The notes beneath the pieces are model-generated. The model worked only from the letters and a program-made list of their open reading frames with translations. It did not search any database and had not been told where the DNA came from. Shown here piece after piece: positions 106 through 48,879 of a DNA stretch of 51,739 nucleotides. Each line of letters opens with the position of its first letter. The first letter of the stretch is position 1. The stretch lies in the sequence record NC_049822.1; one strand, written 5' to 3'. The position numbers were made by a program, and so were the translations under genes. This stretch comes from Escherichia phage vB_EcoS_G29-2.

Positions 106-139
106 AAAATCAGCGTTCACAAACAAAAAGAACAAAATA

Positions 140-300
140 AAATTTATATATATACCCATAAAATCAATAAGTTAGTTATATATGTATTTATATTTGTTAT
201 TTACTGTTATGCTCGTTCTGTGGGTATATGGTGGTGTGGTATTGTTTTTGGTGATATGTATGCGTGGTTGTATACTTTTTAATCAATGGTAATGCGGGGT
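140..300. repeat. AT/TG-rich non-coding element, copy A (homologous to 29770-29935)
   Basis: shared blocks AAATCAATAAGTTAG, TATTTATATTTGTT, TGTGG/TGTGTG, TGGTTGT. Confidence 0.55.
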
Positions 301-1005: not shown

Positions 1006-1258
1006 GGCATTAATTGGAGTTTTGATTGCAATCGCTACCCTGACCGGATGCGAAAAGGCATCGGAATCAACCGTTGTCGTAGGCGTGGAGTCAGATTTCA
1101 AAGTCGGTCGCCTGTTCACTGTTGACGGATGCACAGCATACAGATTCTATGATAACGGTCGCGCGATCTATTACACCAATTGCAAAGGCGCAACGGATAG
1201 CACGTACAACAGCGGAAAGAACGTAATGCGCCAGCAAGTCACAACAGATATTAAATAG
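998..1258 (+). CDS. putative lipoprotein (signal peptide with lipobox LTGC)
   Basis: N-terminus MSKALIGVLIAIATLTG-C; start overlaps upstream stop; stop codon embedded in motif copy at 1254. Confidence 0.6.
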   Translation: MSKALIGVLIAIATLTGCEKASESTVVVGVESDFKVGRLFTVDGCTAYRFYDNGRAIYYTNCKGATDSTYNSGKNVMRQQVTTDIK

Positions 1259-1300
1259 CACTTTTTGTTAAAACGCCAGGTGCGAATCCTGGCATAATAG
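1254..1300 (+). promoter_or_regulatory. conserved 21-bp motif promoter (motif + spacer hairpin GCCAGG/CCTGGC + -10 ATAATA)
   Basis: AATAGCACTTTTTGTTAAAAC then 19 bp then ATAAT. Confidence 0.6.
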
Positions 1301-1331
1301 CCTCATCGAAACGAGATTGAGGAAAACAAAA

Positions 1332-9423: not shown

Positions 9424-10991
9424 TGCTGATTTGGGAAGACTTAACAGCGGCGCAAAAACGCGCCGTTAAGGAAATGAGCGAATATTCATTCGAAAAGATG
9501 ATCCGCATTTGGTTTCAATTATTGCAAGGTCAGAAATTCTTAGGGAACTGGCATTTCAGCTACCTATGCAGCGAAGTTGAAAAAATCATCAAAGGAGAGT
9601 CACAGAATGTAATTTTCAACATAACGCCAGGCAGTGGTAAAACAGAGATATTCTCGATCCACATGTCACCTTATGCGTCATTGAAAAGTAAGAAGGTGCG
9701 AAATCTTAATCTTTCATTTAGTGATGGCCTTGTCCAGCAGAATAGCAACCGCATTAAAGAGATTATTGGTTCTCCAGAATGGCAGGAGCTATGGCCTGGA
9801 AAGCTGGTAAAGGCAAGCGCAAAGGATCTGATTGTAACCGATGGCGGCAAGGTTAAATTGCAAGTTAACTCGCGATCTATAGGTGGTCAGGTTACTGGTC
9901 TGCGTGGCGGCTACATGGACGATGGATTTACTGGTATGCTGGTTCTTGATGATCCAGACAAACCGGATGACATGCTTTCTAAGGTAAAGCGCGAAGCCGG
10001 ACACATGCGCCTAAAGAACACGGTGCGATCGCGTCGAATGAAGGACACAACGCCCATCGTAATGGTCCAGCAACGGCTACACGTCAATGATTCAACATGG
10101 TTCATGACAAACGGCGGCATGGGCGGCATCCAGTTTAAGGTGGTTAGTATTCCGGCGCTCGTTACTAAGGAATATCGCGAAACGCTTCCTGATTGGTTAA
10201 AGCCTGAGTTTGATCGCGATGTTTTGTCCAGTAAGCCAGTGATGATTGATGGAGTTGCTCATTATTCATTCTGGCCTGCTAAGGAAAGCGCGGAGGAATT
10301 GCTTGCGCTTCGAAATGCTGATCCGTACACGTTCGCTAGTCAGTATCAGCAACAGCCTGTTGCGCTTGGCGGTAACGTGTTTAAAACAGAGTGGTTTCAG
10401 TATTACGGCAGCAGCGAGAAATGCACGCTACCAAAACCGGATCGCTTTGAATATACATTTATCACGGTTGATACCGCACAGAAAACAGGGGAGCTTAACG
10501 ACTACTCCGTGATCTGTTATTGGGGGATGTATAAAGATCGCGTTTACTTCATTGATGGTGTTCGCGGAAAATGGGAAGCACCAGACCTTGAGACTAATTT
10601 TGTTGCGTTCGTTAATCAGTGCTGGAAGCGCAATAAAGAATGCGGAACGTTGCGAAGGATTCATGTTGAAGATAAATCGTCTGGCACTGGTTTGATTCAG
10701 AGTGCAGCGAAAAAAATAATGATCAAGATCAATCCCGTTCAGCGCGATAAAGACAAGGTTACTCGTGCAATGGACGCAGCGCCAGTAATGCGCGCCGGAC
10801 GCGTAGCACTTCCAGAATCGCATCCTATGCTGGCTGAGATACTCGCTGAAGTTGCGGCGTTTACATTCGATGATTCGCATCCTCATGATGATATTGTTGA
10901 TAACATCATTGATGCGGTTAACATTGAAATGAACATGGCAGATGATCCTGTAGGAAGAATGAAAAAATTGGCAGGTTTGCGGAACAAATAG
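9423..10991 (+). CDS. terminase large subunit
   Basis: 522 aa; ATPase P-loop-like TPGSGKT and acidic nuclease-type C-terminus; position between TerS and portal. Confidence 0.85.
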   Translation: MLIWEDLTAAQKRAVKEMSEYSFEKMIRIWFQLLQGQKFLGNWHFSYLCSEVEKIIKGESQNVIFNITPGSGKTEIFSIHMSPYASLKSKKVRNLNLSFSDGLVQQNSNRIKEIIGSPEWQELWPGKLVKASAKDLIVTDGGKVKLQVNSRSIGGQVTGLRGGYMDDGFTGMLVLDDPDKPDDMLSKVKREAGHMRLKNTVRSRRMKDTTPIVMVQQRLHVNDSTWFMTNGGMGGIQFKVVSIPALVTKEYRETLPDWLKPEFDRDVLSSKPVMIDGVAHYSFWPAKESAEELLALRNADPYTFASQYQQQPVALGGNVFKTEWFQYYGSSEKCTLPKPDRFEYTFITVDTAQKTGELNDYSVICYWGMYKDRVYFIDGVRGKWEAPDLETNFVAFVNQCWKRNKECGTLRRIHVEDKSSGTGLIQSAAKKIMIKINPVQRDKDKVTRAMDAAPVMRAGRVALPESHPMLAEILAEVAAFTFDDSHPHDDIVDNIIDAVNIEMNMADDPVGRMKKLAGLRNK

Positions 10992-11018
10992 CACGAATCG
11001 ATAAACCAATATATAATC

Positions 11019-11048
11019 AAAGGCTGGTAAATCCAGCCTTTTTTTATT
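11019..11048 (+). terminator. rho-independent terminator between TerL and portal
   Basis: AAAGGCTGG-TAAAT-CCAGCCTTTTTTTATT. Confidence 0.7.
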
Positions 11049-11060
11049 GGAGGAAAGATA

Positions 11061-15226: not shown

Positions 15227-15244
15227 CACAAAATTATGTTGCAC

Positions 15245-15266
15245 GTTTAACAAAAAATGCTATCAT
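15245..15266 (-). promoter_or_regulatory. motif copy in inverted orientation between head genes (function unclear)
   Basis: TTAACAAAAAATGCTAT on + strand; lacks the usual 19-bp spacing to a -10. Confidence 0.3.
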
Positions 15267-18274: not shown

Positions 18275-18937
18275 ATGCATTTACCAAATGGATCGCAAAT
18301 TTTCGTTGAGAGCAATCGCGGAAGCGCTATTGAGGCAACGGCAGTATCAAACGCTAAAGATCCTGTATTCACCGTTGCATCTGGCGGAACTGCGTACAAG
18401 AAAGGTGATTATGTTATCATCACTGCGTCTTCTTGGGGTAAGCTGATTGATCGTGTTATGCGTGTAAAGACTAACGGTGAAGAAACAAGCGTGACTCTTG
18501 AAGGCGTAGATACTACTGATCAGAACGTTTTTCCGTCTGGCGGCACTGCATCTTTTGCCAAAATTGATGCATGGACTGAGATCCCTTGCGTTCAGGATTT
18601 GTCGCAGGACGGCGGCGAACAGCAATACTACACTTATCAGTGTTTGGCAGACGATCAGGAACAGCAGTTACCTACATATAAGAGCGCTGTTTCTCTTACT
18701 TACACTTTTGCGCACGAATACGATAACGCGATCTATCCGCTATTGCGTTCAGCAGATGAATCAGGCGAAGTGACCGCGCTTCGCATGTATGTACCGAAAG
18801 CGAAAGAGATGCGTTGCTGGGCTGGTGTCCTTTCGTTTAACGAGATCCCACAAACGACCGTTAACGAAATGGAAACTGTTTCCCTGTCTGTATCCCTGAA
18901 AGGTCGATTCACCTTCCTACCTTCTCAAGTAGCATAA
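18275..18937 (+). CDS. major tail protein
   Basis: 220 aa, strong terminator after, immediately upstream of chaperone pair and tape measure. Confidence 0.65.
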   Translation: MHLPNGSQIFVESNRGSAIEATAVSNAKDPVFTVASGGTAYKKGDYVIITASSWGKLIDRVMRVKTNGEETSVTLEGVDTTDQNVFPSGGTASFAKIDAWTEIPCVQDLSQDGGEQQYYTYQCLADDQEQQLPTYKSAVSLTYTFAHEYDNAIYPLLRSADESGEVTALRMYVPKAKEMRCWAGVLSFNEIPQTTVNEMETVSLSVSLKGRFTFLPSQVA

Positions 18938-18942
18938 TCACA

Positions 18943-18968
18943 AGGGGCGTTGCGCCCCTTTTTTTGTT
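18943..18968 (+). terminator. rho-independent terminator after major tail gene
   Basis: AAGGGGCG-TT-GCGCCCCTT + TTTTTTTG. Confidence 0.75.
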
Positions 18969-19003
18969 ACTGTACAATCATGCTACACGATTCATAATCA
19001 ATT

Positions 19004-19024
19004 CTTTTAACAAAAAGTGCTATC
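19004..19024 (-). promoter_or_regulatory. motif copy in inverted orientation upstream of chaperone gene (function unclear)
   Basis: CTTTTAACAAAAAGTGCTATC on + strand immediately before RBS of 19037. Confidence 0.3.
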
Positions 19025-19036
19025 AAGGAGAAAGAA

Positions 19037-19354
19037 ATGTCAAAAATGAAATTAACTCTTGGGCCGCTTCCTGACTTTAAATTACCAGTGAAATTTGCAA
19101 TGCCTAACGGAGAAGATCAAACAATTATCTTCACAGTTCGCCACCGCAAAACAAGTGAGATTCACGAGCGATACACGTCAGACACTCCAATGAGCGATGT
19201 TGAAATGATCACCTTCCTTGCTTCCGGTTGGAATCTTGATGATGAATTTAACGAAGAAAATATTAAACAGCTTCTTGATTACTACCCAGCAACAGCAATC
19301 GGATTAACTAGCGCATACATGAAAGCGCTTGCGGGGCAGCGAGTAAAAAACTAA
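19037..19354 (+). CDS. tail assembly chaperone (G-like)
   Basis: acidic 105 aa directly upstream of tape measure; ends at slippery heptamer. Confidence 0.7.
   Translation: MSKMKLTLGPLPDFKLPVKFAMPNGEDQTIIFTVRHRKTSEIHERYTSDTPMSDVEMITFLASGWNLDDEFNEENIKQLLDYYPATAIGLTSAYMKALAGQRVKN
19345..19351 (+). other. candidate -1 programmed ribosomal frameshift site (A AAA AAC)
   Basis: slippery heptamer in the zero frame of 19037-19354 two codons before stop; -1 frame is open into 19357-19665. Confidence 0.55.
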
Positions 19355-19356
19355 AA

Positions 19357-19665
19357 ATGGCGGTTTACCTGTTTTATCAGAAACCGCCGACAGATGCAGA
19401 GCTTGAGGCCGTTGGCCTTACAAGGGCAGACTATGAAGGAGAAGATCCGCCAGAGGTTATATTTGATGAAAGCATGATGCAATCATGGGATATATTTTGC
19501 GCAATGCAAACGCAATGGAGATGTTCTGGCGGTGGCGCTTACGGATTTGATTATAATGTCTTGCCTATGCTTTTTGAGATTTACAAGGTTGAGGATCGCG
19601 AGATGGCGCTAAACGACTTGCGAATCATGGAGCAAAAAGCACTTGAAATGATGCATTCAAAATAA
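19357..19665 (+). CDS. tail assembly chaperone frameshift extension (GT-like)
   Basis: -1 frame relative to 19037-19354, open from slippery site A AAA AAC at 19345-19351. Confidence 0.6.
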   Translation: MAVYLFYQKPPTDAELEAVGLTRADYEGEDPPEVIFDESMMQSWDIFCAMQTQWRCSGGGAYGFDYNVLPMLFEIYKVEDREMALNDLRIMEQKALEMMHSK

Positions 19666-19687
19666 GCGCCTACGGGCGCTTTTTTAT
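19663..19687 (+). terminator. rho-independent terminator after chaperone genes
   Basis: AGCGCC-TACG-GGCGCT + TTTTTATT. Confidence 0.7.
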
Positions 19688-24869: not shown

Positions 24870-24897
24870 AGTCGCGCGTTGCGCGGCTTTTTTTTTG
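24870..24897 (+). terminator. rho-independent terminator before J gene
   Basis: GC-rich hairpin GTCGCGCG..CGCGGC + T9. Confidence 0.6.
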
Positions 24898-24941
24898 CCC
24901 GTATAATTCAACAAATCAAATAGCACAAAAGGTGAAAAAGC

Positions 24942-27900
24942 ATGGCTGAAAATATGATAACGGGCAGTAAGGGTGGATCATCAAAACCTTATGTTCCGAA
25001 AGAGATGGAAGATAACCTGATCTCAATCAACAAAATCAAAATCCTTCTTGCCGTTTCAGATGGCGAGTGCGATCCAGATTTTACACTTCGGGATCTGTAT
25101 CTTGATGATGTTCCGGTAATTGCAGACGACGGAACTGTTAACTACCAGGGTGTGAAAGCTGAATTTCGACCTGGAACGCAGACGCAAGATTACATCCAGG
25201 GGTTTACTGACACATCAAGCGAAGTGACGCTGGCGCGTGACATTACTACATCAAATCCTTATGTAATTTCTGTAACCAACAAAACATTATCGGCTATCAG
25301 AATCAAAATGCTAATGCCAACAGGCATTAAGCAAGAGGACAACGGCGATCTTGTCGGCGTTAAGGTCACTTATGCTGTTGATATGGCTGTTGACGGAGAC
25401 TCTTACAAAGAAGTATTGCGAGACACTATCGAAGGTAAAACACGTTCAGGTTACGATAGAAGCCGAAGGATTGACCTTCCGTCATTTAATGATCGCGTAT
25501 TACTTAGGGTTAGAAGGGTTACGGCAGACAGCGCATCTTCTCGTGTTACTGATCTTATTAAGCTACAAAGTTACGCTGAGGTTATTGATGCAAAATTCCG
25601 TTACCCTCTGACTGGTCTTGTATACGTTGAATTTGACAGTGAATTGTTTCCTAACCAGATCCCAAATATTTCAATCAAGAAAAAGTGGAAACTGATTAAT
25701 GTACCAAGCAACTATGATCCTGTATCCAGAGAGTATAGAGGTTCATGGGATGGAACATTCAAAAAAGCCTGGTCAAATAATCCAGCATGGGTGCTTTACG
25801 ACATCATTACAAATCAGCGTTATGGATTAGATCAGAGAGAGCTTGGTGTACAGGTTGATAAGTGGAGTCTTTACGAAGCTGCGCAATACTGCGATCAGAA
25901 AGTTCCAGACGGAAAAGGAGGCACAGAGCCACGCTATCTATGTGATGTTGTTATCCAGAGTCAGATTGAGGCTTATCAGCTTATTCGTGACATTTGCTCT
26001 ATCTTCCGTGGAATGAGCTTTTGGAATGGCGAGAGTTTGTCAATCGTTATTGATAAACCACGCGATCCATCTTACATCTTCACAAATGATAACGTTGTTG
26101 ATGGTGATTTCCAGTATACGACGGCAAGCGAAAAGAGCATGTACACTCAGTGCAACGTGACGTTCGACGACGAACAAAACATGTATCAACAGGACGTAGA
26201 GGGAGTATTCGACACAGAGGCAGCATTGCGCTTTGGATACAATCCTACAAGCATAACCGCGATCGGATGTACACGCAGGAGTGAGGCTAATCGGCGCGGT
26301 CGATGGATACTAAAAACCAACTTGCGCAGCACTACGGTAAACTTTGCTACTGGACTGGAAGGCATGATCCCATCAATAGGTGATGTGATTGCTATTGCTG
26401 ACAATTTTCACAGCAGCAACCTTAAATTAAACCTATCAGGGCGCGTGATGGAAGTTTCCGGCTTGCAGGTGTTCGTTCCGTTTAAGATTGACGCGCGACC
26501 AGGTGATTTCATTATCATCAACAAGCCGGACGGAAAGCCAGTTAAGCGCACAATCTCAAAGGTAAGCGGTGACGGAAAAACAATTGAGCTAAACATCGGG
26601 TTTGGGTTTGAAGTTAAGCCGGATACAGTTTTTGCAATCGACCGCACTGATATTGCATTGCAGCAATACGTTGTAACGAGTATCGGCAAAGGTGATGATG
26701 ATGATGAATTTACATACTCCATCACGGCTGTTGAATATGACCCGAACAAATACGACGAGATTGATTATGGAGTAAACATTGACGACAGGCCAACTTCAAT
26801 TGTCCAGCCTGACACAATGGCAGCGCCTGAAAATGTGCAAATATCCTCCTACTCGCGAATTGTCCAGGGTGCAAGCGTTGAAACAATGGTTGTGTCGTGG
26901 GATAAAGTACCTTACGCATCGCTGTATGAAATGCAGTGGCGAAAAGGTGATGGCAACTGGCTGAATACACCACAGACTGCAAACAAAGAAATTGAGGTTG
27001 AAGGTATTTATTCAGGAAACTACCAGGTAAGGGTTAGATCTGTTTCTGCTTCAGGTTCGACGTCGCCGTGGTCCAGAATTGTAACAGCTTCACTGACTGG
27101 TAAGGTAGGGGAGCCAGGCGCGCCAGTTAACTTAACTGCATCCGACAATGAGGTGTTTGGCATTCGTGTTAAGTGGGGGATGCCAGAAGGCAGCGGAGAC
27201 ACGGCATACATTGAGCTTCATCAGTCGCCGGATGGAACGGCTGAAAACTCAAGCCTGTTAACTCTGATCCCATATCCACAATATGAATACTGGCACGGTA
27301 CGCTTCCGGCTGGTCATGTTGTATGGTATAGAATCCGCAGTGTTGACAGAATCGGCAACGTTTCCGGATGGACTGATTTTGTTAGAGGCATGGCTTCAGA
27401 TGATGTGGAGGCTGTTTTAGGCAATATTCTTGATAAGATTTTTGATACCGAAGCAGGGAAGGATCTGAAAGAGAATGCCATTGATAGCGCAAACAAAATC
27501 AAGGATCAGGCGCAAAGCATCATTCAAAACGCATTGGCGAATGATGCAGACGTTAGGATTATGAGGAAGGAAAACGGAAAACGCAAAGCCGAATTCAGGC
27601 AATCAATACAGTTGATCGCAGATGAAACTGAGGCGCGCGTTACCGCAATGACGCAACTCAAGGCTGAATTTGACGAGGAAATAACTAGCGAAGTAACGAG
27701 GCTTGATCAGGCAATTGCAACAGAATCGGAAACGCGAGCAACAGCCATTGAGGAATTGAAATCACAGATTGGAGATGATATTCAGGGGCAGTTAACGAGA
27801 GTTGAGGAGGCGATTGCAAGCGAAACAGAGGCGCGCGTTTCTGCTGACACAGCATTAACAGCGAAGTTTGGAGATGTTGAATCAGCGCTGACGGAAAAAC

Positions 27901-38037: not shown

Positions 38038-38511
38038 TTAGCAATTAGTGCTTTCAGGTTTATACAGGAATCCGCCAGGTTCATAATCTGACATTCTTAC
38101 CACTCGCAACATTTCACGCTTATCACATCTCTTTGTGAGCGGTTTGCCATTGGAATCAAATCGCAGATCTGGACGGCAGAATGACGCGCGATAGCCTTGA
38201 CAACCATATTTCTTGTAATCGTTATGCACCTTTTGAGCGCCAGCGGCTGAAATCATACCGCGAACGCGCCACTGATTTACAGTTTGCTGGCTAACGTTAA
38301 GACGCTTTGCCATTGCTGACACGCTGCCGTAATACTCAATAAGAATGTCAAGCCGTGCTTTTAGTCCGGCGCGCACTTCATCTTTTAAAACATAGTATCC
38401 TGTAGGGCGCTTGCGCTTTTTCTTATCTTTACCCCGTCGAGTTCCGTTATTGCCATTAATTGTGCGCTTGTCAATCTTGCCTGTTGATACCGCGATTCGC
38501 TGCTCTTTCAT
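38038..38511 (-). CDS. HTH DNA-binding protein (putative regulator)
   Basis: helix-turn-helix SVSAMAKRLNVSQQTVNQWRVRG; basic K/R-rich N-terminus. Confidence 0.6.
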   Translation of the reverse strand: MKEQRIAVSTGKIDKRTINGNNGTRRGKDKKKRKRPTGYYVLKDEVRAGLKARLDILIEYYGSVSAMAKRLNVSQQTVNQWRVRGMISAAGAQKVHNDYKKYGCQGYRASFCRPDLRFDSNGKPLTKRCDKREMLRVVRMSDYEPGGFLYKPESTNC

Positions 38512-38523
38512 TATTCATTCTCC

Positions 38524-38569
38524 AATAGCATTTTTTGTTAAACGATGATTTAATGATTGTGTATTATAC
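38524..38569 (+). promoter_or_regulatory. conserved motif promoter for helicase operon (no spacer hairpin, -10 TATTAT)
   Basis: CAATAGCATTTTTTGTTAAAC then 19 bp then TATTAT. Confidence 0.5.
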
Positions 38570-40640
38570 ACTCCAAATGGCATTACTCAAAGGTTTTAGA
38601 ATGATTCCAAACATTGAAAAGCAAATATCAGCACTTGGTGAAGCGGTAATTAAATCCATTCAGGAGCGGTTCACTGTTGGCGATATTGTGCCTTACCCTT
38701 ACCAGTGCGTTGCATACGCTGAGATCGCAAAGCGTATGAAAAATTATGAGCATCCATTCTTTGTTAAAGCGTCGGTATCGGCTGGCAAAACATTGATGTT
38801 TGCAATGGTTGCTCACCAGTGCCGGAAAATGGGCTTAAAAATGATGGTTCTTGCTCGCCAAGCTGAGATTGTGGATCAAGATTCTGAAGAGATAACAAAT
38901 CTTGGCGTGCCGAACTCAATCTATTGCGCAGGGCTGAAGACAAAGAGCGCATACTTTCCGATCGTTGTTGGTTCTGAGGGAACTGTAGTTAATGGACTGT
39001 TTAAAGCGCTTGGCGACTATGTTCCGCACGTTATCGGGATTGACGAGTGTCACCAGGTGGATTGGGAAGACCTTGCCGACGCCATAGAGAAAGATGAGTC
39101 ATTTTTACAAATGACGACAAAGAAAGGCGAAAGAGTACCAAATCCAGATTATGACATAGAGAGCGATAACGAGTGCGAAGAGTTCCTGATTGGTGAGGAT
39201 GGCTTGCCAATGGAGGGAACAGGCCGCACACAATACACTGTCATTATCATGGAAATGATGCGACGTTGCAGGAAAGCATATGGCCATGAACTGCGCATAT
39301 TTGGCATGACTGGATCGGAGTTTCGCGGTGTAGTCCCAATACTGGTAGAAGATAAAAAGCAGAAAGGATTTTGGCGTGAACAGGTTACTAATATTGACAC
39401 CAACTACCTGATCAAGTTCGGTTCTGTTGTTCCGACTAATTTTGGCGACGTTGGCGATCTCGGGTATGACCTTTCAGAGTTTGAGGCATCAAGCGAGGAT
39501 GGCGTTGCAGACTTTGACGCTAAAACGCTTCGCAGGATGGAACAAAAAATTCATGAAGAAGCGACCATGACAAAGCGCATCATGGCGAAAGTGCACGAGA
39601 TCTGTAAAAACCGTAACGGTGTACTTGTGACATGTGCAGGCGAAAGGCACTGTAAAGAGGCGGCGGCAGCATTGCCGCCTGGAACGACTTACAGGATCAT
39701 TACTGGTAAGACTGGCGATAACCAGCGCAAGGAGTGGTTGAAAGAAGCATACGAGGGAAAGGTTAAATACATCTTCCAGGTGCAGGCGCTAACTACTGGC
39801 GTTAACGTGCCGTTTTGGGATACGTCTGTTATTCTGCGTAAGATTGGATCTCTTACGTTGCTGATTCAGCTTTTAGGGCGCGGAATGCGACTGCTTAAGA
39901 AATGGCATAAGGAGCAAGGATTCAAGAAAGATGATCATCTCGTCATGGATTTTTCAGGAACGATGGACGAGCTAGGGGAGCTTTATTTTGATCCGATACT
40001 GGAACAGGCGCAGCACCAGAAGCGATTCAGAAATGGTAAAGATCCGAAGCCTTGTCCTGTTTGCGGAACTCTTAACAGCTATTATGCTCGTCGTTGTATG
40101 CACGTAGACGAAAACGGCAACAGATGCGAGTGGTTCTTTAAATTCAGGACATGTGATGATCAGATTGACCCGCGCACTAAAAAGATTATTCATCGCGGTT
40201 GCGGAACGAAGAATGATATTGCGGCCAGGGTATGCAGACATTGCGACATGTCATTGATTGACCCTAACGAGAAGTTAAGCGGAAAGCACTACACAAAAAA
40301 CGACTGGTTTCAGGTGCAATCTTTCTCGGTTGACATGACGAAAAACCAGAAAGGGATAATATTTAATTATGAGCTTTCCGATGGCATAGACACTTTCAGG
40401 GCGAGAGAGATATTTTTCCCTGAATCTGAGAGCCAAATTTGCCGCGCAAAATGGCGAAGCGTTGCTCTTAAGCACATACCAGATCGCCGTGTTGCTGGCA
40501 TGGTGGCGAGCTATCGTAATGCACGTAAAATCATGCAATATGTGAATCACATCATGCCACCATCGCGTGTAACTCACCGCAAGACTAGCAAGGGTGAAGA
40601 TAATTTGTACAAGAAGGACTTTAATTATGGCAATGACTGA
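38535..40640 (+). CDS. ATP-dependent helicase (SF2, DEAH-type) with C-terminal zinc ribbons
   Basis: Walker A SAGKT, DEAH-like IGIDECHQV, C-terminal CPVCG...C...C clusters; start uncertain (38535 TTG, ATG 38578 or 38601). Confidence 0.75.
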   Translation: MLNDDLMIVYYTLQMALLKGFRMIPNIEKQISALGEAVIKSIQERFTVGDIVPYPYQCVAYAEIAKRMKNYEHPFFVKASVSAGKTLMFAMVAHQCRKMGLKMMVLARQAEIVDQDSEEITNLGVPNSIYCAGLKTKSAYFPIVVGSEGTVVNGLFKALGDYVPHVIGIDECHQVDWEDLADAIEKDESFLQMTTKKGERVPNPDYDIESDNECEEFLIGEDGLPMEGTGRTQYTVIIMEMMRRCRKAYGHELRIFGMTGSEFRGVVPILVEDKKQKGFWREQVTNIDTNYLIKFGSVVPTNFGDVGDLGYDLSEFEASSEDGVADFDAKTLRRMEQKIHEEATMTKRIMAKVHEICKNRNGVLVTCAGERHCKEAAAALPPGTTYRIITGKTGDNQRKEWLKEAYEGKVKYIFQVQALTTGVNVPFWDTSVILRKIGSLTLLIQLLGRGMRLLKKWHKEQGFKKDDHLVMDFSGTMDELGELYFDPILEQAQHQKRFRNGKDPKPCPVCGTLNSYYARRCMHVDENGNRCEWFFKFRTCDDQIDPRTKKIIHRGCGTKNDIAARVCRHCDMSLIDPNEKLSGKHYTKNDWFQVQSFSVDMTKNQKGIIFNYELSDGIDTFRAREIFFPESESQICRAKWRSVALKHIPDRRVAGMVASYRNARKIMQYVNHIMPPSRVTHRKTSKGEDNLYKKDFNYGND

Positions 40641-41826: not shown

Positions 41827-42066
41827 ATGCAGAAAGAAAGAAGCGTTTATTTAAATGAAACTGGAGAGTGGTTGTTATTTCGCGCTATGGTTTGCGAGGC
41901 GCTTGATAAAAACGAGTTCATAAAACCGCTATTAGGTTGTGATCCGTGGGAGTTTACAAGCGCGCTTGATATGAGCTTTGAGGAAACAAGAAAACTACCG
42001 CTTGAAAAATGGCATGAGCAGATCGGTAAAGACTTGCAAGAGTTTTACGAATCCGCGACAAAATAG
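41827..42066 (+). CDS. hypothetical protein
   Basis: RBS GGAG; stop in motif copy at 42062. Confidence 0.45.
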   Translation: MQKERSVYLNETGEWLLFRAMVCEALDKNEFIKPLLGCDPWEFTSALDMSFEETRKLPLEKWHEQIGKDLQEFYESATK

Positions 42067-42107
42067 CACTTTTTGTTAAAAAGCCCGGCCCTGTGTCGGG
42101 CATAATT
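42062..42107 (+). promoter_or_regulatory. conserved motif promoter (hairpin GCCCG/CGGGC, -10 CATAAT)
   Basis: motif then 19 bp then ATAATT. Confidence 0.55.
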
Positions 42108-42138
42108 ATTTCATCAAAACGAACAAGAGGAAAACAAA

Positions 42139-42318
42139 ATGGTTGTTTACGATCCACGCGCTTTTAAAATTGCTCAAGAAGTTTCACGCGAATCTGTTGC
42201 TGGCGGTTCGGTTAACGGCTATCAGTTTGATTGGTCGGCAGCAATGACCTTGCTTAAGGTTGCATATGGTCACGCGCCAATTGAAACAGCGGAGGCATAT
42301 TATAAGCATGAAGGTTGA
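42139..42318 (+). CDS. small hypothetical protein (59 aa)
   Basis: not in track; RBS AAGAGGAAAA downstream of motif promoter. Confidence 0.4.
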   Translation: MVVYDPRAFKIAQEVSRESVAGGSVNGYQFDWSAAMTLLKVAYGHAPIETAEAYYKHEG

Positions 42319-48097: not shown

Positions 48098-48128
48098 CGT
48101 TTATTTCTCCTTTCGTTTCGGTGAAGTG

Positions 48129-48173
48129 ATTATGCCAGGCTTTTACACCTGGCTTTTAACAAAAAGTGCTATT
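48129..48173 (-). promoter_or_regulatory. conserved motif promoter (hairpin GCCAGG/CCTGGC, -10 CATAAT)
   Basis: minus-strand motif; same hairpin sequence as copy at 1254. Confidence 0.55.
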
Positions 48174-48879
48174 TTGCGTTTGCTTCAAAGACGGCGCGAG
48201 CAAAACCGCGCGGTGTGAGGGAGCGGATCATCTTTGTGCGAGACGATTTTCCGCCAGTTTTGGCCCAACCAGGATTATCCTTGTCGCCATCTTTAGGAAT
48301 GATTGTTGCGCGCGGAGGAATAACAAATCCGTTTCCAGTCCAAAGGCATGTTTTCTTAAAGTACCGATCCCGTGCCGGAATAATATCAGGAAAGTCGGGA
48401 TGTTTATCATCTTCCGGCAGATAGCCAGCATAATCGCACGGATGGAACGTATAATCAGGCTTGCGCCATAGCGTTGACAGCTTGCCTACAGGATTCTCTA
48501 TCATGTACGGAACACCGAAATAATCAGCAATTTGCGCCGCTATTTTGCAAGTGTCGGCGGCTTCATCCTGGAACGATGGATTCTCAATGCGTTTTTTAGC
48601 CCAATGGCGAGATCCGCTATTTGCAAGGTCAGTGCATGGAGGGAACGCCATAATAAAATCAGGCTTACCCCAATTTTCAAGTTTTGCGGTATATTTGAAT
48701 AGATCATCAATCCACGCGTTAACGTAAAAGATATTGTCATGGATTATGCGCACTGAGTGGTAATCACCGTGATCAGCATCATCGTAATTAAAGCAAATGC
48801 ATTTATATCCAGCATCAGCCCAATCTTTAACGGCTTTACCGGATCCATCAAACAAAGAGAAAATTAAACCCTTATACAT
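48169..48879 (-). CDS. putative DNA (cytosine-5) methyltransferase, compact
   Basis: motif I-like LFDGSG, motif IV-like FPPC, motif VI-like ENPVG; RBS GAGGTGA. Confidence 0.5.
   Translation of the reverse strand: MYKGLIFSLFDGSGKAVKDWADAGYKCICFNYDDADHGDYHSVRIIHDNIFYVNAWIDDLFKYTAKLENWGKPDFIMAFPPCTDLANSGSRHWAKKRIENPSFQDEAADTCKIAAQIADYFGVPYMIENPVGKLSTLWRKPDYTFHPCDYAGYLPEDDKHPDFPDIIPARDRYFKKTCLWTGNGFVIPPRATIIPKDGDKDNPGWAKTGGKSSRTKMIRSLTPRGFARAVFEANAK

What the first reader, a model, noticed from the sequence alone, without database searches (positions are those of the whole stretch)
19004..19024. Inverted motif copy immediately upstream of the tail-chaperone RBS
CTTTTAACAAAAAGTGCTATC ends only 3 bp before the AAGGAG RBS of 19037, just after the major-tail terminator. 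In this orientation it would direct transcription back into the major tail gene, or it may be a protein-binding site modulating chaperone and tape-measure expression.
Basis: seen in the sequence. Interest (0 to 1): 0.45.

Follow-up and report, generated by a model that had tools for sequence, protein, structure and literature searches.

The report
Backward-facing promoter before tail chaperone gene
A copy of the 21-base control sequence that T1-like phages place in front of most of their early genes sits backwards just before the tail-chaperone gene, and together with a conserved start signal it forms a complete leftward promoter that shares its core DNA with the rightward promoter of the chaperone and tape-measure genes, so it most likely tunes those genes down; this is inferred from sequence comparison only.

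Summary
CTTTTAACAAAAAGTGCTATC at 19004-19024 is the reverse complement of the Drexlerviridae 21-nt repeat (aaATAGCACnnnTTGnTAAAA, described for phage TLS in 2024, function unknown). The window is a T1-like Hanrivervirus. Twenty of its 22 copies point the way their genes run, and 20 of 22 are followed after 19-20 nt by a -10 hexamer.

The 19004 copy is one of two antisense copies, yet on the minus strand it is a full unit: motif, 20 nt, TAGCAT (18985..18980). All 26 orthologous sites fetched without reference to the -10 keep TAnnnT at exactly 20 nt, although the spacer and inner hexamer bases have diverged. One base further left lies a conserved rightward sigma70-type promoter, TTGCGC (in the terminator loop)-17-TACAAT. 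This promoter is also present in genera that lack the motif.

The two promoters are back to back with interdigitated -10s and predicted starts 12 bp apart, so RNA polymerase cannot occupy both. My best reading (confidence 0.5) is a motif-dependent decoy or antisense promoter that damps or delays chaperone and tape-measure transcription. No transcript data exist. Novelty is modest: a known repeat used in a new way.

The parts
18942..18965 (+). Intrinsic terminator of the major tail protein gene (hairpin 18942-18960, T run to 18965)
   Evidence: Terminator scan. The hairpin is conserved in all orthologs.
18950..18955 (+). TTGCGC, the -35-like hexamer of the rightward promoter P(+), lying in the loop and 3' stem of the terminator
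   Evidence: TTGC[GA]C lies 17 nt upstream of TAnAAT in every ortholog read, with or without the motif. The same layout precedes the tail-fibre J-like gene at 24879-24907.
18973..18978 (+). TACAAT, the -10 of rightward promoter P(+). Predicted start is A18985.
   Evidence: TAnAAT in 26 of 26 orthologs (TAAAAT 14, TAGAAT 8, TACAAT 4). Motif-less genera have TAATAT at the same place. The start site is inferred as 7 nt after the hexamer.
18980..18985 (-). TAGCAT (read on the minus strand), the -10 of leftward promoter P(-). Predicted start is at 18973 (A on the minus strand).
   Evidence: TAnnnT in 26 of 26 orthologs, with 9 different hexamers and a tenth in L005. It always lies exactly 20 nt from the motif, which is the family spacing.
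18986..19005 (-). 20-nt spacer between the motif and the leftward -10. Its length is fixed but its sequence is free.
   Evidence: At least 10 unrelated spacer sequences, all 20 nt long. The CATAAT at 18993-18998 inside it is specific to Hanrivervirus.
19004..19024 (-). The finding: the 21-nt Drexlerviridae repeat in inverted orientation. Its core, ATAGCACTTTTTGTTAAA, is 19023..19006 on the minus strand. The dyad half-sites are TAGCA (19022..19018) and TGTTA (19012..19008). The dyad centre at 19015 corresponds to -42 of P(-) and +31 of P(+).
   Evidence: The 18-nt core TTTAACAAAAAGTGCTAT is unchanged in Hanrivervirus, Warwickvirus, Tunavirus (T1, IME18) and several unclassified phages, except for one A-for-G variant (L100), while the flanks diverge. 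Dyad.
19025..19039 (+). AAGGAG Shine-Dalgarno (19025-19030) and the ATG (19037) of the tail assembly chaperone gene 19037-19354
   Evidence: Pfam Phage_TAC_4, E = 1e-31.

Best explanation
The inverted motif is the upstream element of a complete leftward promoter, P(-): motif 19023..19006, a 20-nt spacer, the -10 TAGCAT at 18985..18980, and a predicted start near 18973. It belongs to the same class as the roughly 20 motif-dependent promoters that drive the non-structural genes of this T1-like phage.

P(-) is built back to back with a conventional sigma70-type rightward promoter, P(+): TTGCGC at 18950-55, 17 nt, TACAAT at 18973-78, and a predicted start near 18985. P(+) serves the chaperone and tape-measure operon. 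The two -10 hexamers are one base apart and the predicted starts 12 bp apart, so the polymerase footprints overlap almost completely and only one promoter can be occupied at a time.

Whatever recognises the motif therefore draws polymerase into the unproductive leftward orientation. The recogniser is most likely a dimeric helix-turn-helix activator bound at -42, possibly the phage's Cro-like regulator encoded at 38038-38511. Leftward occupancy occludes P(+) and opposes read-through from the major tail gene. The result would be to lower or delay chaperone and tape-measure transcription relative to the major tail protein. A short untranslated RNA antisense to the terminator and 3' end of the tail-tube gene would be a by-product.

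Shown: the sequence architecture and its conservation. Inferred: the start sites, mutual exclusion, the direction of the regulatory effect, and the identity of the factor.
For: 1. The motif family behaves as a promoter element. In the window, 20 of 22 copies are followed after 19-20 nt by [T/C]AnnnT and then by an RBS and a gene. The same holds in T1 and Stevie. Among 159 unique contexts from IMG/VR, TAnnnT occurs at offset 20 in 59% and at no other offset between 10 and 29 in more than 6%. With CAnnnT included, the share at offset 20 is about 83%.

2. The 19004 copy has that -10 at exactly that spacing. So do 26 of 26 orthologous sites retrieved with a pattern that did not specify the -10. 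They carry 9 different hexamers and at least 10 different spacers, so neutral positions have had time to change.

3. By contrast, the distance from the motif to the Shine-Dalgarno varies from 0 to 12 nt.

4. The + strand TTGC[GA]C-17-TAnAAT is conserved in 26 of 26 sites. It is also present (as TAATAT) in motif-less Tlsvirus, Henuseptimavirus and Webervirus. P(+) is therefore an independent element.

5. In motif-less genomes the base that would be A-11 of P(-) is G on the minus strand (C on +). It is A in every motif-bearing genome.

6. The same design occurs at 38511-38601. There a sigma70 promoter of the Cro-like regulator and the motif-dependent helicase promoter share one palindromic -10, and the inverted motif again lies just before an RBS.

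7. The motif contains the dyad TAGCA-N5-TG(C/T)TA, centred at -42 of the downstream -10. Other late-region copies sit at positions that would be repressive for sigma70-type promoters: -18 for the capsid gene and +15 for the J-like gene.
Against: No transcript, footprint or reporter data exist for any T1-like phage in the held literature.

The leftward -10 variants (TAGCAT, TAGGAT, TACGAT and others) are weaker than the family norm of TATAAT, CATAAT or TATAGT.

Two of the three invariant -10 positions (complements of A18980 and A18985) are also conserved in motif-less relatives. They could reflect the discriminator and start site of P(+). Only the A-11 position is specific to motif-bearing genomes, and the orthologs are related by descent.

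The unit is absent from Tlsvirus, Rogunavirus, Braunvirinae, Webervirus, Kyungwonvirus and Sauletekiovirus, so it is dispensable.

There is no minus-strand gene and no recognisable minus-strand terminator.

The -35 of P(+) in this window matches the consensus at only 3 of 6 positions.

The factor that reads the motif is unknown. It could be host RNA polymerase itself.
Confidence: 0.5

Rival explanations
1. Pure operator or roadblock. The motif is only a protein-binding site in the 5' leader DNA of the chaperone operon, centred at +31 of P(+). The bound protein blocks elongating polymerase. No leftward transcription occurs, and the apparent minus-strand -10 merely reflects the discriminator and start-site preferences of P(+).
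For: Two other late-region copies lack any -10 at the family spacing yet are conserved. They are the capsid-site copy inside the spacer of a sigma70 promoter and the J-site copy overlapping the RBS. The motif has dyad symmetry typical of helix-turn-helix dimers. A at x+7 and A at x+12 after the P(+) -10 are also conserved in motif-less genomes.
Against: A roadblock does not need a fixed 20-nt distance from the P(+) core, but that distance is invariant in 26 of 26 orthologs while the distance to the RBS floats. The A-11 position is found only in motif-bearing genomes. The proximal half-site orientation (TTGTTAAA side towards the -10) is the same as in all canonical promoters.
Confidence: 0.2
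2. Functional cis-antisense RNA. The purpose of P(-) is its product, an RNA complementary to the terminator and 3' end of the major tail protein mRNA. This RNA would alter that mRNA's stability or termination, in the manner of lambda oop acting on cII.
For: P(-) points into the 3' end of gene 18275-18937, and its unit is conserved. The first 60 nt of the predicted RNA fold well, at -24 kcal/mol with z = -3.3, because they contain the reversed terminator hairpin.
Against: No minus-strand terminator-like site follows the hairpin in the window. In T1 the hairpin is followed by UGUGGAUGG rather than a U run, so no discrete RNA end is conserved. The good fold is simply the mirror image of the + strand terminator. 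Rfam gives nothing above threshold. Antisense RNA against the most abundant tail protein seems counterproductive late in infection.
Confidence: 0.12
3. Neutral or hitch-hiking copy. A promoter cassette was inserted or recombined in the wrong orientation at a module boundary and is simply tolerated.
For: The unit is present in some genera and absent in others with otherwise collinear genomes. Identical repeats at gene boundaries are natural recombination points (general knowledge).
Against: The motif, the -10 key positions and the 20-nt length stay intact across Tunavirinae and Tempevirinae, while the neighbouring intergenic bases are saturated with changes. That pattern indicates purifying selection.
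Confidence: 0.1
4. RNA-level leader element. The transcribed inverted motif in the chaperone 5' UTR controls translation, either by pairing with the Shine-Dalgarno or by binding a protein.
For: In this window the motif abuts AAGGAG. UUCUUUU could pair with AAGGAGAA (seen in the MFE fold).
Against: The leader folds no better than shuffled sequence, with z = +0.2 in both the window and T1. The distance to the Shine-Dalgarno varies from 0 to 12 nt among orthologs. The sequence is identical to a DNA element that in about 20 other places lies upstream of the transcription start. There is no Rfam match.
Confidence: 0.04

Closest known systems
21-nt direct repeats of T1-like phages (TLS DR1-DR18, consensus aaATAGCACnnnTTGnTAAAA; Kropinski and co-workers 2024, PMC11447400)
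   Same: The sequence matches the consensus at every specified position. It lies in an intergenic region and belongs to the same phage family. It has the same fixed 20-nt distance to a -10 hexamer that I find for the family.
   Different: The paper describes the repeats as lying in the direction of transcription, about 76 nt upstream of start codons, and leaves their function open (stoperator, enhancer site or UP element). This copy is antisense to its neighbours, abuts an RBS, and has no counterpart in TLS or Stevie. The one inverted late copy in the TLS list (DR7, before the capsid gene) is not discussed there.
Class II activator-dependent promoters, e.g. lambda PRM with CI at OR2 centred at -42, or CRP at -41.5 (own knowledge)
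   Same: The promoter has a -10 but no -35 at the normal place. A dyad-symmetric site with 10 bp between half-site centres is centred at about -42. The same site lies at repressive positions in other promoters, as lambda operators do.
   Different: No activator has been identified or tested. The site has asymmetric A-rich flanks and a fixed polarity relative to the -10, which a symmetric dimer site would not need. Host RNA polymerase alone may read it.
Overlapping divergent promoter pairs that compete for RNA polymerase, e.g. lambda PR/PRM, and the phage's own regulator/helicase pair at 38511-38601 (own knowledge for lambda; for the latter)
   Same: Two promoters face away from each other with overlapping footprints. 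One is constitutive sigma70-type and the other depends on an upstream site that lies in the leader of the first.
   Different: Here the leftward partner has no gene to express. Its only evident outputs are occupancy of the shared core and an antisense RNA.
Lambda oop RNA (own knowledge)
   Same: A small promoter just downstream of a gene, firing back across its 3' end.
   Different: oop has its own terminator and a defined 77-nt product. No minus-strand terminator is recognisable here.
Stoperators of mycobacteriophage L5 (own knowledge; suggested as an analogy in PMC11447400)
   Same: Many copies of one asymmetric site in short intergenic regions, mostly in one orientation relative to transcription.
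   Different: Stoperators are not tied to a -10 at a fixed distance. This family is, which argues for a promoter element rather than an elongation block.

Membership tests
Drexlerviridae 21-nt repeat (TLS DR family) | Match to aaATAGCACnnnTTGnTAAAA | tested here: met
   The minus strand reads gATAGCACTTTTTGTTAAAAg, with 0 mismatches in the 15 specified core positions. Consensus from PMC11447400.
Drexlerviridae 21-nt repeat (TLS DR family) | Host genome is a T1-like phage carrying many copies | tested here: met
   The window is 96-97% identical to Hanrivervirus phages. It carries 22 copies.
Drexlerviridae 21-nt repeat (TLS DR family) | Oriented in the direction of transcription, about 76 nt upstream of a start codon | tested here: not met
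   The copy is antisense to genes 18275-18937 and 19037-19354. There is no minus-strand gene downstream. It lies 13 nt from the chaperone ATG, but in the opposite orientation.
Motif-dependent promoter unit (motif + 19-20 nt + -10), as defined here | [T/C]AnnnT hexamer 19-20 nt after the core | tested here: met
   TAGCAT at 20 nt. 26 of 26 orthologs. Family statistics.
Motif-dependent promoter unit (motif + 19-20 nt + -10), as defined here | Conserved leader (..CAtcGAAAc.AA..) and an RBS downstream of the -10, as in the early copies | tested here: not met
   The downstream sequence is gattgtacagtaac followed by the reversed terminator. It has no such leader and no RBS.
Motif-dependent promoter unit (motif + 19-20 nt + -10), as defined here | Transcription actually initiates there | not testable with these tools
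   No TSS or RNA-seq data for T1-like phages were found.
Class II activator-dependent sigma70 promoter | -10 present, no -35 at 16-18 nt, activator site centred near -41.5 | tested here: met
   TTGTTA lies 22 nt from the -10, and the dyad centre is at -42 assuming a start 7 nt after the hexamer. This is geometry only.
Class II activator-dependent sigma70 promoter | A defined activator protein that binds the site and contacts RNA polymerase | not testable with these tools
   The candidate is the Cro/YdaS-like HTH protein encoded at 38038-38511 (phrog_2856, E = 3e-78; Pfam HTH hits just below cut-off). Its link to the motif is inference.
cis-antisense small RNA (oop-like) | Promoter antisense to the 3' end of a gene | tested here: met
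   P(-) points into the 3' end of 18275-18937.
cis-antisense small RNA (oop-like) | Own terminator giving a discrete short RNA | tested here: not met
   No minus-strand terminator-like site near 18900-18960. In T1 the reversed hairpin is followed by UGUGGAUGG.
Known RNA families (Rfam 15) | Covariance-model match at or above the gathering score | tested here: not met
   The best hits score 24.4 and 20.6 bits against gathering scores of 50 and 60. Both lie on the terminator hairpin.
UP element | A/T-only tract at -40 to -60 without invariant G or C | tested here: not met
   G4, C5 and G13 are invariant and C7 nearly so. Because copies were selected by a pattern that specifies these positions, this is partly by construction. 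Position and A-richness are similar. The UP consensus is recalled from own knowledge.

The most novel reading that the evidence does not exclude
The whole temporal programme of T1-like phages may be run by one operator and one immediate-early Cro-like protein. Three consensus sigma70 promoters would start the infection: 455-483, 30062-30089, and the regulator's own promoter near 38563-38590. The regulator would then bind the TAGCA-N5-TGYTA dyad. Centred at -42, it would switch on about 20 promoters that lack a -35. At -18 (capsid), +15 (J-like gene), about +23 (its own promoter) and +31 (chaperone), it would hold down sigma70-type promoters. At the chaperone site, where the operator lies too far downstream to block polymerase directly, evolution added a -10 so that the activator recruits polymerase as a 'decoy' that occludes the real promoter.
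Probability: 0.22. Interest if true: 0.65.

Novelty: new variant of a known kind. Interest (0 to 1): 0.45.

Why it matters
T1 is one of the seven classic coliphages. It has no RNA polymerase or sigma factor of its own, and how it times its genes is still unknown. The only recent paper that discusses the 21-nt repeat leaves its role open.

The antisense copy is informative because it separates what the motif needs (a -10 at exactly 20 nt) from what it does not need (a gene, a leader, or a fixed distance to an RBS).

Together with the capsid-site, J-site and regulator-site copies, it gives a concrete model that is cheap to test: one site used positively at -42 and negatively elsewhere. It would also be a compact natural example of a promoter whose apparent job is to compete with its neighbour rather than to make a product. 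That is useful for phage engineering, where T1-like phages are common therapeutic candidates.

Tried and rejected
1. The promoter-like hit reported by the scanner, TGTACA-16-CATAAT at 18971-18998. The CATAAT is found only in Hanrivervirus and is not conserved in other motif-bearing genera. I treat it as incidental.

2. Reading the inverted motif itself as a rightward extended -10 (TGcTATCAA). This works at the capsid site, where TTGCAC-16-TGcTATCAT is conserved as a good promoter in T1 and Stevie. At 19004 there is no -35, the last hexamer base is not T in any ortholog, and the start would fall after the Shine-Dalgarno.

3. An RNA structure in the leader. The fold z-score is +0.2, so I rejected this.

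4. Rfam. Nothing scored above threshold.

5. A minus-strand ORF downstream of P(-). There are only short, RBS-less frames.

6. TTGTTA as a normal -35. The spacer would be 22 nt.

7. By-eye comparison with the CRP, FNR, IHF and Fis consensus sequences recalled from memory. There was no convincing match, and this was not tested formally.

8. Literature searches for TSS or RNA-seq data on T1-like phages, or for other descriptions of the motif. Only PMC11447400 turned up. The T1 and Rtp genome papers are not held.

9. My first description of the two promoters as convergent was wrong. Recomputing the coordinates shows they are divergent, with interdigitated -10s.

10. The first-gene product (520-1005, DUF7174) as the motif reader. 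It has no DNA-binding signature, so the question is left open.

Full report
**What the window is.**
The 51.7-kb window is a T1-like siphovirus of the Drexlerviridae, genus Hanrivervirus. It is 96-97% identical over the structural region to Escherichia phages aaroes, haarsle and vojen and to Shigella phage pSf-1. Gene 18275-18937 is the tail tube (major tail) protein (Pfam Phage_tail_3, E = 2e-64). Gene 19037-19354 is the tail assembly chaperone (Phage_TAC_4, E = 1e-31).

**The observation.**
CTTTTAACAAAAAGTGCTATC is at 19004-19024 as stated. It belongs to a repeat family. With up to 3 mismatches there are 15 matches in the window and none in 100 shuffles. With the published consensus and up to 2 mismatches there are 22 copies.

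The family is already in the literature. [quoted passage not shown] It says similar repeats occur in T1, Rtp and Rogue1, and it leaves the function open: stoperator-like, enhancer site or UP element (PMC11447400).

Two details of the finding need correction. The motif touches AAGGAG (19025-19030), so the gap is 0 nt rather than 3. The T run of the terminator ends 38 nt before the motif.

**What the family looks like.**
In the window, 20 of 22 copies point the way their genes run. 20 of 22 are followed after 19-20 nt by CATAAT, TATAAT, TATAGT or a similar hexamer, and then by a leader and an RBS. T1 and Citrobacter phage Stevie show the same pattern.

In 159 unique contexts fetched from IMG/VR with the exact 18-mer, TAnnnT occurs at offset 20 in 59%. 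It occurs in no more than 6% at any other offset from 10 to 29. Adding CAnnnT brings the offset-20 figure to about 83%.

There is no -35 at the normal distance, because TTGTTA is 22 nt from the -10. The core contains the dyad TAGCA-N5-TG(C/T)TA with half-site centres 10 bp apart. If transcription starts 7 nt after the hexamer, the dyad is centred at -42. The geometry is therefore that of a class II activator-dependent promoter. This conclusion rests on sequence geometry, not on a demonstrated activator.

Only three consensus sigma70 promoters stand out, as in TLS:
- 455-483, before the first gene.
- 30062-30089, before the recE-like gene.
- The promoter of a Cro/YdaS-like HTH regulator encoded at 38038-38511.

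**Which copies are really inverted.**
The copy at 29673 is not inverted. It is an ordinary promoter of a minus-strand cor-like lipoprotein gene, as in T1. Only 15246-15263 (before the major capsid gene) and 19006-19023 (the finding) are antisense to their neighbours.

**Anatomy of the 19004 site.**
On the minus strand the site reads as follows:
- ATAGCACTTTTTGTTAAA at 19023..19006.
- A 20-nt spacer.
- TAGCAT at 18985..18980.
- Six bases.
- A at 18973.

On the plus strand, one base to the left of that hexamer, lies TACAAT (18973-18978). Seventeen nt upstream of it is TTGCGC (18950-18955), which sits in the loop and 3' stem of the major-tail terminator. Seven nt downstream of TACAAT is A18985.

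The two promoter-like units are thus divergent, with interdigitated -10s and predicted starts 12 bp apart. Each one's upstream element lies in the other's initial transcribed region. Polymerase footprints of about -55 to +20 cannot coexist on this DNA.

**Comparative test.**
I fetched orthologous sites in two ways.

- *By homology of the chaperone and by BLAST of the region*. The inverted motif is present, with its 18-nt core TTTAACAAAAAGTGCTAT unchanged apart from one A-for-G variant (L100), in Hanrivervirus, Warwickvirus (tonnikala), Tunavirus (T1, IME18), an IME347-like phage, BananaBelafonte and Enterobacter phage BHUENT9, while the rest of the intergenic region diverges.
- *By scanning IMG/VR for 'inverted motif, 0-14 nt, GGAGA'*. 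This pattern says nothing about the -10. Of 30 unique contexts found this way, 26 are this site. All 26 have TAnnnT on the minus strand at exactly 20 nt, with nine different hexamers (TAGGAT, TACGAT, TAGCAT, TAGAGT, TATCAT, TAGATT, TATATT, TACAGT, TAAGAT) and at least ten unrelated spacers. All 26 also have TAnAAT on the plus strand one base further on. A relaxed search found no other spacing.

The distance from the motif to the Shine-Dalgarno is not fixed. It ranges from 0 to 12 nt.

**Relatives without the motif.**
Tlsvirus (TLS, Stevie, Salmonella phage 36, UTK0007), Henuseptimavirus, Webervirus, Rogunavirus, Braunvirinae, Kyungwonvirus and Sauletekiovirus lack the motif at this site. Tlsvirus, Henuseptimavirus and Webervirus RCIP0096 keep the terminator-embedded rightward promoter (TTGCGC-17-TAATAT) and have a leader about 40 nt shorter. 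In these three groups the base corresponding to A-11 of the leftward -10 is G.

The rightward promoter is therefore an independent, older element. The leftward unit is an add-on whose critical adenine co-occurs with the motif.

The caveat is that the complements of the other two invariant positions, A18980 and A18985, are also conserved in motif-less genomes. They may serve the rightward promoter as its discriminator and start site. Only one position is uniquely explained by a leftward -10, and the orthologs are not independent samples.

**A second example in the same genome.**
At 38511-38601 the sigma70 promoter of the regulator gene (minus strand, TTGAGT-16-TATAAT) and the motif-dependent promoter of the helicase gene (plus strand; motif 38525-38542, TATTAT 38562-38567) share one palindromic -10. 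The regulator's leader therefore contains the inverted motif directly before its RBS, just as at the chaperone gene.

There the opposing promoter has a gene to express. At 19004 it does not. The minus strand offers only short frames without an RBS and no terminator-like site.

**Other late copies.**
- *Capsid site.* The inverted motif forms the spacer of a strong rightward promoter with an extended -10 (TTGCAC 15239-44, 16 nt, TGcTATCAT to 15266). This is conserved in T1 (TTGACG-16-TATTAT) and Stevie (TTGAAC-16-TATATT). The minus strand there has no usable -10 (TATGCG, TATACA, TAGCAC).
- *J-like gene.* A direct 'A-type' copy at 24920-24937 overlaps the RBS. It lies 13 nt downstream of another terminator-embedded promoter (TTGCGC 24879-84, 17 nt, TATAAT 24902-07) and again has no -10 after it.

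So in the late region the site sits at -18, +15 and +31 of sigma70-type promoters. At all three positions occupancy should hinder those promoters. Only at +31, which is too far downstream to hinder directly, is the site accompanied by a -10 that would bring polymerase onto the shared core.

**Mechanism proposed.**
I commit to the following, at about 0.5 confidence. The 19004 copy is the upstream element of a real leftward promoter of the motif-dependent class. Its main effect is competition with, and occlusion of, the rightward chaperone and tape-measure promoter. It would also collide with read-through from the major tail gene. This lowers or delays expression of proteins that are needed in far smaller numbers than the tail tube protein. 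A short antisense RNA across the terminator and 3' end of the tail tube gene is a by-product and may add to the effect.

Steps shown: the architecture, the spacing and the conservation. Steps inferred: initiation, mutual exclusion, the sign of the effect, and the reader of the motif.

A plausible reader is the Cro-like regulator. It is expressed from its own consensus promoter, carries an HTH, and is 57-59% identical between the window, T1 and Stevie with the HTH and a basic N-terminal segment best conserved. Nothing links it to the motif except position and logic. Host polymerase alone is not excluded.

**Rivals.**
- *A pure roadblock or operator (0.2).* This is supported by the -10-less late copies. 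It does not explain the rigid 20-nt spacing or the motif-specific A-11.
- *An oop-like functional antisense RNA (0.12).* It lacks a conserved 3' end.
- *A tolerated mis-oriented cassette (0.1).* This conflicts with the selective pattern of conservation.
- *An RNA leader element (0.04).* This conflicts with the floating distance to the Shine-Dalgarno, the absence of structure (z = +0.2) and the identity with a DNA element that elsewhere lies upstream of transcription starts.

**Novelty and score.**
The repeat is known, and so are overlapping competing promoters. Three things appear to be undescribed:
- This antisense copy is a complete promoter unit, conserved in two subfamilies, fused to a sigma70 promoter.
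- The family has class II geometry with a dyad core.
- The late copies occupy repressive positions.

The literature searches found only the TLS paper. I rate the finding a new variant of a known kind with interest 0.45. It is not startling, but it turns the old question of how T1 times its genes into a few simple experiments.

Noticed in passing
window 15239-15266 (motif core 15246-15263, minus strand); T1 L012 15069-15086; Stevie L013 6387-6404: The other antisense copy forms the 16-nt spacer and half of the extended -10 of a strong rightward sigma70-type promoter aimed at the major capsid gene (ATG 15310): TTGCAC-16-TGcTATCAT. This is conserved as TTGACG-16-TATTAT in T1 and TTGAAC-16-TATATT in Stevie. 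The minus strand has no usable -10 there. In T1 and Stevie a hairpin followed by Ts lies between this promoter and the capsid RBS (annotated as terminator T35 in TLS). That layout recalls lambda PR'-QBE-tR'.
   Followed up: partly
window 24879-24944: Terminator-embedded promoter TTGCGC (24879-84)-17-TATAAT (24902-07), followed 12 nt later by a direct 'A-type' motif copy, ATAGCACAAAAGGTGAAA (24920-37). The copy contains the RBS of the J-like tail gene (ATG 24942) and has no -10 after it. The same layout is found in T1 and Stevie.
   Followed up: partly
window 38511-38601: Divergent regulator and helicase promoters share one palindromic -10 (TATTATA, 38562-38568). The regulator (a Cro/YdaS-like HTH protein, 38038-38511) has a consensus-like sigma70 promoter, and the inverted motif sits in its leader just before the RBS. 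This looks like an autoregulatory switch.
   Followed up: partly
window 18950-55, 24879-84 and other late terminators (14754-70, 16297-320, 19664-81, 22736-58): Late-region terminators often carry TTGCGC in the loop and are followed after the T run by a -10-like hexamer. Terminator and next promoter therefore overlap, matching the 'transcriptons' mentioned for T1 in PMC11447400. Only the two sites at 18950 and 24879 were examined in detail.
   Followed up: partly
canonical promoter units, e.g. window 1253-1331, 42061-42139, 48118-48174: The 20-nt spacer between motif and -10 holds a GC-rich hairpin of at least 5 bp in 30% of 353 unique units, against 7% after shuffling. A conserved leader, ..acc.CAtcGAAAc.AAa.., follows the -10. 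The function of both features is unknown. In some units the hairpin is annotated as a terminator in TLS (T62, right after DR12).
   Followed up: partly
window 118-265 and 29764-29907: Two AT-rich stretches share direct and inverted repeats (D8 at 73% over 105 nt; I7 and I8). One lies upstream of the consensus sigma70 promoter at 455-483 and the other upstream of the one at 30062-30089. They may be early control regions or origin-like regions.
   Followed up: no
window 10988-11060: A motif copy overlapping the 3' end of the large terminase gene is followed after 4-6 nt by TATATAAT, then by a terminator hairpin and the portal RBS. It is one of the two copies without a -10 at the family spacing. 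T1 has no copy here but has one before the small terminase gene (L012 8362-8379).
   Followed up: no
window 29395-29690 (minus strand): A small minus-strand gene for a cor-like lipoprotein (MKKLIAVLIAAATLTGC...) is driven by a canonical motif promoter (core 29673-29690, TATAGT at 19 nt). It ends at the bidirectional terminator at 29360-29382. The gene falls below the 80-aa cut-off of the ORF list.
   Followed up: yes
window 19037-19665: The chaperone ORF 19037-19354 is followed by ORF 19357-19665 and a terminator at 19664-19681. This is the usual G/GT programmed-frameshift pair, annotated as a joined CDS in Stevie and KLPN1. The slippery site was not located.
   Followed up: no
GenBank records MG065649, MG065637, MG065643 ('Campylobacter phage A143, A15b, E6'): These records, labelled as Campylobacter jejuni phages, are Hanrivervirus or Tlsvirus-like T1-type genomes about 79% identical to this window. 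The host attribution looks doubtful, and the two records fetched, A143 and A15b, are flagged UNVERIFIED or unannotated.
   Followed up: no
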